NCBI GenBank assembly: GCA_947594935.1
Contig: CANQEM010000006.1
Coordinates: 225-64,224 of the forward strand
Reading direction: 5' to 3'
Source of the DNA: an uncultured Clostridia bacterium
GTDB lineage: Bacteria; Bacillota; Clostridia; TANB77; CAG-508
DNA length: 64,000 nucleotides
This document shows positions 35,936 through 36,140 of this stretch, piece after piece (position 1 is the stretch's first letter; each line of letters begins with the position of its first letter). The position numbers were made by a program, and so were the translations under genes. The notes under the pieces were generated by a model that saw only the letters and a list, made by a program, of their open reading frames with translations, was not told the DNA's origin and made no database searches.

Positions 35936-35988
35936 AAAAAAGCATAATAAAAAGAAAGCCACATAACTTAAAATAGTATGGCTTTCTT
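35936..35988 (-). terminator. Terminator-like hairpin inside the T7SS leader (10-bp stem 35988..35979 / 35961..35952, 17-nt loop, then UUUAUUAUGCUUUUUU)
   Basis: aagaaagcca / tggctttctt are perfectly complementary; located 32-84 nt upstream of the WXG start codon. Confidence 0.5.
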
Positions 35989-36081
35989 GCATACACAAAA
36001 ATCCCTATTTGTTTCGATAAGGCTATTTGTAAAGTATGTTATATATATATATATATATACAGTCTCAGGGATTTTCGTCAT
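35968..36081 (-). CDS. Putative 37-aa leader ORF (MTKIPETVYIYIYITYFTNSLIETNRDFCVCKKAILF) containing the (TA)10 tract and ending inside the hairpin loop
   Basis: ATG 36081 is preceded at 8 nt by AAAGGAGAG; no homology evidence available. Confidence 0.3.
   Translation of the reverse strand: MTKIPETVYIYIYITYFTNSLIETNRDFCVCKKAILF
36040..36059. repeat. (TA)10 dinucleotide microsatellite in the T7SS leader
   Basis: 20 nt of perfect TA repeats, flanked by the inverted repeat aaatccct (36000-36007 region) / agggattt (36067-36074). Confidence 0.98.
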
Positions 36082-36111
36082 TTTTATTACTCTCCTTTAA
36101 TTTATATTTTA

Positions 36112-36140
36112 TTTATATACTACTTGTTTAACTTTGTCAA
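36112..36140 (-). promoter_or_regulatory. SigA-type promoter of the T7SS operon: TTGACA (36140..36135), 17 nt, TATAAA (36117..36112)
   Basis: Hexamers and spacing read directly; places the transcript start just upstream of the leader-ORF RBS. Confidence 0.55.

What the first reader, a model, noticed from the sequence alone, without database searches (positions are those of the whole stretch)
35936..36140. T7SS leader: RBS-preceded mini-ORF carrying (TA)10 that runs into a terminator-like hairpin
Seen on the minus strand, in order: promoter TTGACA-17-TATAAA (36140..36112); AAAGGAGAG plus 8 nt plus ATG (36081); and an ORF whose codons 8-14 are G(TA)10. In the present register this ORF continues for 37 codons. 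Its stop (35970..35968) lies in the loop of a 10-bp-stem hairpin followed by a U-rich tract, 32 nt before the WXG RBS region. Adding one TA unit creates an immediate TAA stop after codon 14 (GTA TAT ATA TAT ATA TAT ATA TAA). An inverted repeat (aaatccct/agggattt) also brackets the TA tract. Inference: ribosomes translating the full mini-ORF would melt the left arm of the hairpin (anti-termination). Slipped-strand changes of the TA tract would stop translation early and let the terminator form. That would be a phase-variable, translation-coupled attenuator for a secretion system, which I have not seen described. It may equally be coincidence in AT-rich DNA.
Basis: inference. Interest (0 to 1): 0.65.

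Follow-up and report, generated by a model that had tools for sequence, protein, structure and literature searches.

The report
Repeat-switched leader attenuator before T7SS operon
A stretch of ten TA repeats sits inside a tiny leader gene that ends in a terminator hairpin just before a type VII secretion operon; it differs by one unit between strains, and it matches a known but rare on/off switch design first shown for Streptococcus gallolyticus pili.

Summary
On the minus strand these are a promoter, a strong Shine-Dalgarno (SD) site with ATG, and a 37-codon mini-ORF holding G(TA)10. Its TAA stop lies in the loop of a -15 kcal/mol hairpin followed by a U-tract, 32 nt before the SD of a WXG100 gene. 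That gene heads a T7SSb operon whose EssC scores above the NCBIfam cut-off.

New evidence:
- The 64 kb window has only two (TA)n runs of 5 or more units. Both are (TA)10, both lie in 5' regulatory DNA, and both differ by one unit between metagenome samples.
- A second strain (99.4% identical) carries (TA)11 here. This is the allele predicted to stop the mini-ORF at codon 14, 50 nt before the hairpin.
- Only n = 7, 10 or 13 put the stop inside the hairpin.

The mechanism is not undescribed. It matches, feature for feature, the GCAGA-repeat leader-peptide attenuator of S. gallolyticus pil1/pil3 (Danne 2014).

Function is inferred, since there are no transcript or read-level data. Six relatives of the WXG100 gene (57-64% protein identity) lack the leader.

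Verdict: a probable new member of a known, rare kind.

The parts
36189..36219 (-). Intrinsic terminator of the upstream ECF sigma / anti-sigma operon. It marks the upstream boundary of the leader unit.
   Evidence: 14-bp stem, 3-nt loop, T-run. Free energy -16.4 kcal/mol, z = -5.6. The upstream genes carry Sigma70_r2/r4 and zf-HC2 domains.
36112..36140 (-). Candidate sigma-70-type promoter TTGACA-17-TATAAA.
   Evidence: Six relatives have TTGACA/TTGACT-16/17-TAnnnT in front of their WXG100 gene. The -10 hexamer lacks the final T and the scan did not call it.
36090..36098 (-). Shine-Dalgarno site AAAGGAGAG, 8 nt before the mini-ORF ATG.
   Evidence: AGGAG-N5-10-ATG motifs in intergenic DNA of this window otherwise always mark real gene starts.
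35968..36081 (-). Leader mini-ORF of 37 codons plus TAA (MTKIPETVYIYIYITYFTNSLIETNRDFCVCKKAILF).
   Evidence: It was called as a gene on metagenome contigs. It is a singleton cluster at 90% identity.
36040..36059 (-). (TA)10 simple sequence repeat forming codons 8-14 of the mini-ORF. It differs between strains.
   Evidence: It is (TA)10 in the window and in four metagenome samples, and (TA)11 in SRR29273031.
36067..36075 (-). Left arm of the 9-bp inverted repeat (AAAATCCCT), in codons 3-5 of the mini-ORF.
   Evidence: Not significant alone.
35998..36006 (-). Right arm of the 9-bp inverted repeat (AGGGATTTT).
   Evidence: Not significant alone.
35952..35988 (-). Terminator-like hairpin: 12-bp stem and 13-nt loop. 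The loop contains the mini-ORF stop codon (35970-35968).
   Evidence: Free energy -15.0 kcal/mol, z = -4.0, 0 of 200 shuffles fold as well. Coordinates.
35936..35951 (-). U-rich tail (TTTATTATGCTTTTTT) directly after the hairpin.
35290..35919 (-). SD site TAGGAGG (35919-35913) and the WXG100-like gene (204 aa, ATG at 35904), the first gene of the T7SS operon.
   Evidence: Pfam WXG100 E = 1.9e-9. NCBIfam ESAT6_2 and WXG100_ESAT6 match below their cut-offs.
28233..31916 (-). EssC ATPase of the same operon, which defines the system as T7SSb.
   Evidence: TIGR03928 T7_EssCb_Firm scores 969.7 bits against a cut-off of 778.4. Pfam FtsK_SpoIIIE.

Best explanation
This is a phase-variable transcription attenuator driven by a simple sequence repeat (SSR) inside a leader peptide gene.

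How it would work:
- Transcription starts at the promoter near 36140-36112.
- A ribosome loads at the strong SD/ATG (36098/36081) and translates the mini-ORF.
- With (TA)n where n = 1 mod 3 (7, 10 or 13; the window has 10), the ribosome reads to a TAA in the loop of the hairpin. Its roughly 30-nt footprint covers both arms, so the terminator cannot form and RNA polymerase continues into the WXG100-EssC T7SSb operon. This is the ON state.
- Slipped-strand gain or loss of one TA unit moves the stop to TAA 50 nt before the hairpin (n = 2 mod 3) or to TAG 34 nt before it (n = 0 mod 3). The hairpin plus U-tract then forms and most transcripts end. This is the OFF or low state.

What is shown and what is inferred:
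- Shown: the architecture, the frame rule, the between-strain difference in the tract, and the experimentally proven precedent.
- Inferred: the transcript start, terminator activity, translation of the mini-ORF, and its coupling to termination.
For: (1) All elements are present in the right order. The hairpin is as stable as the bona fide terminator upstream: -15.0 versus -16.4 kcal/mol.

(2) Frame rule. The stop lies inside the hairpin loop only for n = 4, 7, 10, 13. Otherwise it lies 50 or 34 nt upstream. In S. gallolyticus pil1, a stop within or next to the hairpin gave high expression, and a stop at least 28 nt upstream gave low expression. Delta-terminator, ATG* and 3-STOP mutants confirmed the mechanism there (PMC3894217).

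(3) Length difference between strains. The tract is (TA)10 in the window and in samples ERZ27249446, ERZ27249440, ERZ27060145 and ERZ27249451. It is (TA)11 in SRR29273031, a strain with 22 SNPs over 3.9 kb in which the TA unit is the only indel. The rest of the leader is identical in that strain.

(4) The only other TA run of 5 or more units in 64 kb is also (TA)10. It sits in a promoter spacer (TTGACA-17-TATACT) before a methyltransferase / glycosyltransferase / DUF7657 operon, and it is (TA)9 in one sample. So this genome appears to use TA tracts as switches. By chance, 4e-6 such tracts are expected.

(5) The quality of the SD-ATG predicts real translation.

(6) There is no Rfam family, no alternative antiterminator fold, no ECF promoter and no repeat element that would offer another reading.
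Against: - There are no expression, transcript-end or read-level data.
- Only one contig carries the alternative allele, and the assemblies have 2-4x coverage. PCR or sequencing stutter at a 20-nt TA run cannot be excluded.
- The five (TA)10 observations come from near-clonal genomes (at least 99.9% identical), so they show neither stability nor instability.
- The leader is absent from all six relatives examined (57-64% WXG100 identity). Their promoters lie 35-130 nt from the ATG with no SSR, and no closer relatives exist in the databases. Conservation therefore cannot support function.
- The -10 hexamer lacks its final T.
- The hairpin loop (13 nt) is long for an intrinsic terminator.
- Ribosome-polymerase coupling is generally weak in Firmicutes (my own knowledge, B. 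subtilis), although the S. gallolyticus system works despite this.
- The geometry of an ORF ending in the hairpin has about a 0.1-0.3 chance probability on its own.
Confidence: 0.5

Rival explanations
1. The tract is a neutral microsatellite in a young, lineage-specific piece of intergenic DNA. On this reading the TA tract expanded by slippage in non-functional AT-rich sequence, the mini-ORF is fortuitous or a decayed gene start, and the hairpin is a leftover or leaky terminator. Changes in TA length would have no regulatory consequence.
For: - The roughly 150-nt insert (mini-ORF, tract and hairpin) is absent from all six relatives.
- The peptide has no cluster relatives.
- The first codons of the mini-ORF loosely resemble the WXG100 start (MTKIPETVY versus MAKIQTVDY), which is compatible with a partial duplication remnant.
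- The ORF/hairpin geometry is not individually significant.
- The inverted repeat is not significant.
Against: - Runs of 5-9 TA units are absent from the 64 kb, yet two 10-unit runs exist, and both are exactly at the 5' control regions of surface or secretion operons.
- The SD-ATG is strong and optimally spaced.
- The stop codon falls in the hairpin loop only in one frame, and the out-of-frame stops obey the 28-nt rule of the proven system.
Confidence: 0.25
2. The tract is a real switch that does not act through leader-peptide translation. TA number would instead alter 5'-UTR RNA structure, processing or stability, as in the H. influenzae hmw1A 5'-UTR repeat hairpin cut by RNase III. Alternatively it would alter the geometry of an internal promoter, as in the hif-type spacer.
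For: - The (UA)10 run folds on itself inside a stem closed by the 9-bp inverted repeat.
- A precedent exists for SSRs acting in a 5'-UTR (PMC12721329).
- The second tract in this window is a promoter-spacer type, with the hif (TA)9-11 precedent (PMC2651432).
Against: - The sequences flanking this tract make a poor promoter: GAGACT-17-TATAAC, about 7-8 of 12 matches with no final T. Nothing was listed there by the scan.
- One TA unit changes the predicted leader fold only marginally, and it leaves the terminator hairpin unchanged.
- The A-U-only hairpin is weak.
Confidence: 0.12
3. The mini-ORF is an independent small-protein gene with its own promoter and terminator. The T7SS operon would be transcribed by read-through or from a weak promoter overlapping the hairpin. 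The TA tract would then simply switch the small protein on and off.
For: - The promoter, SD, ORF and terminator form a complete unit.
- Gene callers predicted the ORF.
- A weak TTTAAG-17-TATTAT match overlaps the hairpin and U-tract (my reading).
Against: - The peptide has no homologues at cluster level, and relatives lack it.
- A quarter of the peptide is encoded by the repeat itself.
- It has no hydrophobic or signal-like character.
- Only 47 nt separate the hairpin from the WXG100 ATG, and no promoter of 9/12 matches or better was found there.
Confidence: 0.08

Closest known systems
Streptococcus gallolyticus pil1/pil3 phase variation by leader-peptide attenuation (Danne et al. 2014, PLoS Pathog, PMC3894217)
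   Same: - The order of elements is the same: promoter, RBS plus ATG, short leader ORF (38 aa there, 37 aa here) containing an SSR whose unit length is not a multiple of 3, stem-loop plus T-run terminator (-18.7 kcal/mol there, -15.0 here), then the first structural gene.
- Repeat number sets the stop position. A stop inside or next to the hairpin predicts ON, and a stop at least 28 nt upstream predicts OFF (here 34 or 50 nt).
- Repeat number differs between isolates.
- Both hosts are gut-associated Firmicutes.
   Different: - The repeat is a TA dinucleotide (10 units, 20 nt) rather than GCAGA (13-22 units).
- The target is a T7SSb operon rather than sortase pili.
- The host is an uncultured low-GC Clostridia lineage.
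- There is no sequence homology, so the design arose independently.
- Function was proven there by mutants and chloramphenicol; here nothing is tested experimentally.
Haemophilus influenzae hifA/hifB fimbrial switch, with (TA)9-11 between the -35 and -10 boxes (van Ham 1993, as summarised in PMC2651432)
   Same: It uses the same repeat unit and the same copy-number range (9-11), with slipped-strand phase variation of a surface structure. The second tract in this window (7171-7190) has exactly this layout.
   Different: At the T7SS leader the tract lies about 45-65 nt downstream of the promoter, inside a translated ORF. It is not in a promoter spacer.
H. influenzae hmw1A 5'-UTR heptamer SSR, processed by RNase III (PMC12721329)
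   Same: The SSR is transcribed as part of a 5' leader and modulates expression after initiation.
   Different: That system works through a long RNA hairpin and RNase III, with a graded response to repeat number. It has no leader peptide, no terminator and no 3-periodic frame rule.
Classical ribosome-mediated attenuators (trp/his operons; antibiotic-responsive leader peptides in Firmicutes). This comparison rests on my own knowledge.
   Same: The position of the ribosome on a leader ORF decides whether an intrinsic terminator forms.
   Different: Those systems sense tRNA charging or drugs through ribosome stalling, and they use alternative antiterminator pairings. Here no antiterminator fold was found, and the input is a heritable change in DNA length.
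Slip-strand variation within T7SS genes: homopolymeric G/A tracts in GBS essC/esaA (PMC9900821), and ESX-1-associated homopolymer variants in M. tuberculosis (PMC11898584)
   Same: Repeat-mediated heritable variation affects a type VII secretion system.
   Different: Those are frameshifts inside structural or regulatory genes. They are not a leader attenuator, and they involve mononucleotide tracts.

Membership tests
SSR-dependent leader-peptide attenuation (S. gallolyticus pil1/pil3 type) | A promoter followed by a short ORF with a recognisable RBS, upstream of the first structural gene. | tested here: met
   TTGACA-17-TATAAA, then AAAGGAGAG-8-ATG, then a 37-codon ORF. The promoter is only a consensus match and its -10 hexamer is imperfect.
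SSR-dependent leader-peptide attenuation (S. gallolyticus pil1/pil3 type) | A simple sequence repeat inside the leader ORF whose unit length is not divisible by 3. | tested here: met
   (TA)10 forms codons 8-14.
SSR-dependent leader-peptide attenuation (S. gallolyticus pil1/pil3 type) | A stem-loop with a T-run (intrinsic terminator) between the leader and the first structural gene. | tested here: inconclusive
   The structure is present: 12-bp stem, -15 kcal/mol, z = -4, with 6 of the next 8 nt being U and then a U6 run. Termination activity cannot be tested in silico, and the 13-nt loop is atypical (not called).
SSR-dependent leader-peptide attenuation (S. gallolyticus pil1/pil3 type) | Repeat number moves the stop codon between a position within or next to the hairpin and a position at least 28 nt upstream. 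| tested here: met
   n = 1 mod 3 puts the stop in the loop. n = 2 mod 3 puts it 50 nt upstream. n = 0 mod 3 puts it 34 nt upstream. The rule comes from PMC3894217.
SSR-dependent leader-peptide attenuation (S. gallolyticus pil1/pil3 type) | Repeat number varies between isolates or within populations. | tested here: met
   (TA)10 in five assemblies and (TA)11 in one. Coverage is low and there is only one variant observation. Within-population variation could not be tested.
SSR-dependent leader-peptide attenuation (S. gallolyticus pil1/pil3 type) | Downstream transcription depends on leader translation and on the terminator (ATG*, delta-terminator and chloramphenicol experiments). | not testable with these tools
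   This needs reporter or mutant experiments, or transcriptomics.
Promoter-spacer SSR switch (hifA/hifB type) | The repeat lies between functional -35 and -10 hexamers, so that repeat number sets the spacer length. | tested here: not met
   The flanks are GAGACT and TATAAC/CATACT, which are poor matches, and the scan called no promoter there. The feature is met instead by the second tract at 7171-7190: TTGACA-c-(TA)8-TATACT.
Classical amino-acid leader-peptide attenuator (trp/his type) | An alternative antiterminator pairing that competes with the terminator, plus a run of regulatory codons. | tested here: not met
   When the leader is folded without the right arm, the left arm is left essentially unpaired. 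There is no codon run other than the Tyr-Ile codons encoded by the repeat itself.
Curated cis-regulatory RNA families (Rfam 15) | A match to a covariance model at or near the gathering score. | tested here: not met
   No hit at the gathering threshold. The best E-value in 35700-36400 is 0.35, to a microRNA model.
Type VIIb secretion system (the regulated operon) | A WXG100 substrate gene plus an EssC FtsK/SpoIIIE ATPase in one cluster. | tested here: met
   Pfam WXG100 E = 1.9e-9 and FtsK_SpoIIIE. TIGR03928 EssC scores 969.7 bits against a cut-off of 778.4.

The most novel reading that the evidence does not exclude
An uncultured gut Clostridia species would run a small phase-variable gene set based on TA repeats. 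One (TA)n tract would switch a T7SSb operon through leader-peptide attenuation, giving a 1-in-3 ON frame. A second tract would switch a cell-surface glycosylation operon through promoter spacing. This would be the first SSR-gated T7SSb, and the second, independently evolved, instance of the leader-peptide/SSR attenuator.
Probability: 0.45. Interest if true: 0.6.

Novelty: new member of a known kind. Interest (0 to 1): 0.52.

Why it matters
If it is functional, several things follow.
- The SSR/leader-peptide attenuator would be a recurring, convergently evolved design rather than a peculiarity of Streptococcus gallolyticus pili.
- Bet-hedging by phase variation would extend to a T7SSb. These are antibacterial and host-interaction weapons whose heterogeneous expression is poorly explained.
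- Genome scanners would gain a simple, searchable signature: SD-ATG, an SSR that is not 3-periodic, and a stop codon inside a terminator hairpin.
- Assemblies of this species would need their TA number recorded, because it would predict T7SS state.

Tried and rejected
- **Known RNA families.** Rfam found nothing in the leader, either at gathering thresholds over the whole window or at E up to 10 over 35700-36400.
- **Mobile or repeated element.** A blastn-short search of the leader against the window found only the second TA tract, so I rejected this origin.
- **ECF-sigma promoter in the leader.** GTAAC-N16-CGTC occurs before the sigma gene at 37666-37642. Nothing comparable lies before the T7SS genes.
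- **Promoter-spacer role for this tract.** The flanking hexamers are too poor.
- **Antiterminator alternative fold.** None was found.
- **Conservation in relatives.** Five GTDB MAGs and one JGI contig (57-64% WXG100 identity) lack the mini-ORF, the SSR and the hairpin. No relatives between 66% and 100% identity exist in 5.8 billion proteins, so covariation or conservation tests were impossible.
- **Contig breaks near the tract in strain-B assemblies.** L011 ends at the first TA, L013 ends 16 nt before the tract, and L009 starts 11 nt after it. I considered these as a sign of within-sample heterogeneity. They are not interpretable, because 2-3x coverage produces gaps elsewhere too.
- **Homology search with the 37-aa peptide.** I did not run one. 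It is a singleton cluster and relatives lack the whole segment.

Full report
**Observation.**
- The promoter is TTGACA (36140-36135), 17 nt, TATAAA (36117-36112).
- The SD site AAAGGAGAG (36098-36090) lies 8 nt before ATG 36081.
- G(TA)10 (36060-36040) forms codons 8-14 of a 37-codon ORF ending at TAA 35970-35968.
- The hairpin has a perfect 10-bp stem that RNAfold extends to 12 bp (arms 35988-35977 and 35963-35952). The stop codon lies in its 13-nt loop.
- The hairpin is followed by TTTATTATGCTTTTTT (to 35936). It sits 32 nt upstream of the SD site TAGGAGG (35919-35913) of a 204-aa WXG100-like gene (ATG 35904).
- The hairpin folds at -15.0 kcal/mol (z = -4.0; 0 of 200 shuffles as good). This is comparable with the clear terminator of the upstream operon at 36219-36189 (-16.4 kcal/mol).

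Two qualifications apply. The -10 hexamer lacks the conserved final T, and the hairpin loop exceeds 8 nt, so the consensus scanner reported neither. The 9-bp inverted repeat AAAATCCCT/AGGGATTTT is not remarkable, because 11% of composition-matched shuffles contain an inverted repeat at least that long.

**Context.**
- Upstream lie an ECF sigma factor (37140-37616) and a zf-HC2 anti-sigma factor (36230-37147) with their own terminator.
- Downstream lie the WXG100-like gene, four genes (115, 430, 203 and 326 aa; the 326-aa protein has an FHA domain), and a 1227-aa EssC. EssC scores 969.7 bits against TIGR03928, whose cut-off is 778.4. The operon is therefore a T7SSb.
- The window has about 28% GC.
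- Its nearest relatives are uncultured gut Clostridia MAGs.

**Is the TA tract more than AT-rich noise?** Yes. TA run lengths in the 64 kb are 585 of 2 units, 82 of 3, 7 of 4, none of 5-9, and two of exactly 10. A first-order Markov model expects 4e-6 runs of 10.

The second tract (7171-7190, minus strand) reads TTGACA-c-(TA)10-ctagaat. That gives a -35 box, a 17-nt spacer made almost entirely of TA, and TATACT as the -10 box. It lies 57 nt upstream of a methyltransferase / family-2 glycosyltransferase / DUF7657 operon. This is the classical H. influenzae hif (TA)9-11 layout (PMC2651432).

**Polymorphism.** I looked up contigs that encode the exact neighbouring proteins. This recovered independent metagenome assemblies of the same species.

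At the T7SS leader:
- The tract is (TA)10 in the window and in ERZ27249446, ERZ27249440, ERZ27060145 and ERZ27249451. All of these are at least 99.9% identical to the window.
- The tract is (TA)11 in SRR29273031. That strain is 99.4% identical over 3.9 kb (22 SNPs), the extra TA is its only indel, and the rest of the leader is base-for-base identical.

At the second tract, ERZ27249451 has (TA)9 while five other assemblies have (TA)10, with only 1-2 SNPs in 3.9-4.9 kb.

So both tracts vary by single units between otherwise near-identical genomes, and they vary independently of each other. The caveats are that coverage is 2-4x, only one variant was observed per locus, and stutter cannot be excluded.

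**Frame rule.** I rebuilt the leader with 4 to 16 TA units.
- For n = 4, 7, 10, 13 or 16, the stop is the TAA in the hairpin loop.
- For n = 5, 8, 11 or 14, a TAA forms at the end of the tract, 50 nt before the hairpin.
- For n = 6, 9, 12 or 15, a TAG ends 34 nt before the hairpin.

**Translation signal.** The window contains 22 AGGAG-N5-10-ATG motifs. Seventeen head ORFs of 76 codons or more and four lie inside genes. The mini-ORF is the only intergenic motif that does not start a long gene. This favours real ribosome loading.

**Known precedent.**
- A 38-aa leader peptide gene containing GCAGA repeats is followed by a -18.7 kcal/mol stem-loop terminator upstream of pilA.
- Variants whose leader stop lies within or just before the hairpin express pil1 highly, because the ribosome covers about 30 nt and prevents the stem-loop from forming.
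- Isolates whose stop lies at least 28 nt upstream show low or heterogeneous expression.
- Delta-terminator, RBS/ATG and 3-STOP mutants and chloramphenicol treatment confirmed the model. The pil3 locus works in the same way.

The present locus meets each sequence-level criterion of that design, including the distance rule. A full-text search for further examples returned only that system, and I found no paper describing an SSR-gated T7SSb. Related but different cases are slip-strand frameshifts in homopolymeric tracts of GBS essC/esaA (PMC9900821), ESX-1-associated homopolymer variants in M. tuberculosis, and a 5'-UTR SSR acting through RNase III in H. influenzae hmw1A (PMC12721329).

**Alternatives examined.**
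- No Rfam family matches the leader.
- The leader is not a repeated element in the window.
- No antiterminator pairing appears when the right arm is withheld from the fold.
- The ECF-type promoter GTAAC-N16-CGTC is found before the sigma gene (37666-37642) but not before the T7SS genes.
- The sequences flanking this tract do not make a promoter.

**Weaknesses.**
- Six relatives (57-64% WXG100 identity) have a TTGACA promoter 35-130 nt from the ATG. None has a mini-ORF, an SSR or this hairpin.
- Nothing between 66% and 100% identity exists in the protein database. The leader is therefore a recent, lineage-specific acquisition, and conservation cannot be used for or against function.
- No transcript or read-level data are available.

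**Verdict.**
- The best explanation (confidence about 0.5) is an SSR-dependent leader-peptide attenuator. On that reading (TA)10 is the ON allele and (TA)11 an OFF allele of the T7SSb operon.
- The main rival (about 0.25) is a neutral microsatellite in young intergenic DNA.
- The locus is a probable new member of a known but very sparsely populated kind. It differs from the type example in repeat unit, regulated cargo and host lineage.

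Noticed in passing
window 7171-7190 (minus strand), context 7113-7366: A second (TA)10 tract lies between TTGACA and TATACT, giving a 17-nt spacer. 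It is 57 nt upstream of a 624-aa methyltransferase-domain protein, a 605-aa family-2 glycosyltransferase and a DUF7657/DUF7654 protein. It is (TA)9 in sample ERZ27249451 and (TA)10 in five other assemblies. This looks like a hif-type promoter-spacer phase switch for a surface glycosylation operon.
   Followed up: yes
window 37642-37666 (minus strand): An ECF-type promoter GTAAC-N16-CGTC lies directly upstream of the ECF sigma gene and is presumably autoregulatory. The only other match in the window (27275-27252) lies inside a gene. I found no sign that this sigma factor drives the adjacent T7SS operon.
   Followed up: partly
window 7367-9923 (minus strand): A DpnII-type restriction-modification cluster sits immediately upstream of the second TA switch. 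It has a DpnII endonuclease (287 aa), an N6_N4 methylase (258 aa), and a further ORF that neighbouring contigs annotate as MethyltransfD12.
   Followed up: no
window ~38013, within 37674-39596 (minus strand); L011/L032: The SbcC-like AAA_23/AAA_27 gene is intact in the window lineage (626-640 aa). In strain B it is split into 530-aa and 106-aa ORFs by a 1-nt deletion that is not in a repeat. This could be a pseudogene or a low-coverage assembly error.
   Followed up: partly
window 36096-36118 (minus strand): TATAAAT is duplicated in tandem (period 11) across the -10 region of the leader promoter, so the exact -10 hexamer and the transcription start are ambiguous. Two weaker promoter-like matches (36190-36163 and 36182-36153) also lie upstream of the mini-ORF. 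Strain B carries SNPs in one of them.
   Followed up: partly
window 31828-32808 and 28233-31916 (minus strand): The FHA domain is on a separate 326-aa protein whose reading frame overlaps the start of EssC (1227 aa). It is not fused to the EssC N-terminus as in the usual Firmicute EssC.
   Followed up: no
window 53344-53440 and 54767-54842 (minus strand): A bacterial small SRP RNA (63.1 bits) and a tRNA gene are the only Rfam hits at gathering threshold in the window.
   Followed up: no
L029 ~505-545: One distant relative (57% WXG100 identity, JGI contig) has a leader of about 130 nt with a 10-bp A/U-rich hairpin (GAAATCAAAA...TTTTGATTTC). It has no SSR, no U-tract and no mini-ORF. Some relatives may therefore have other leader structures.
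   Followed up: no
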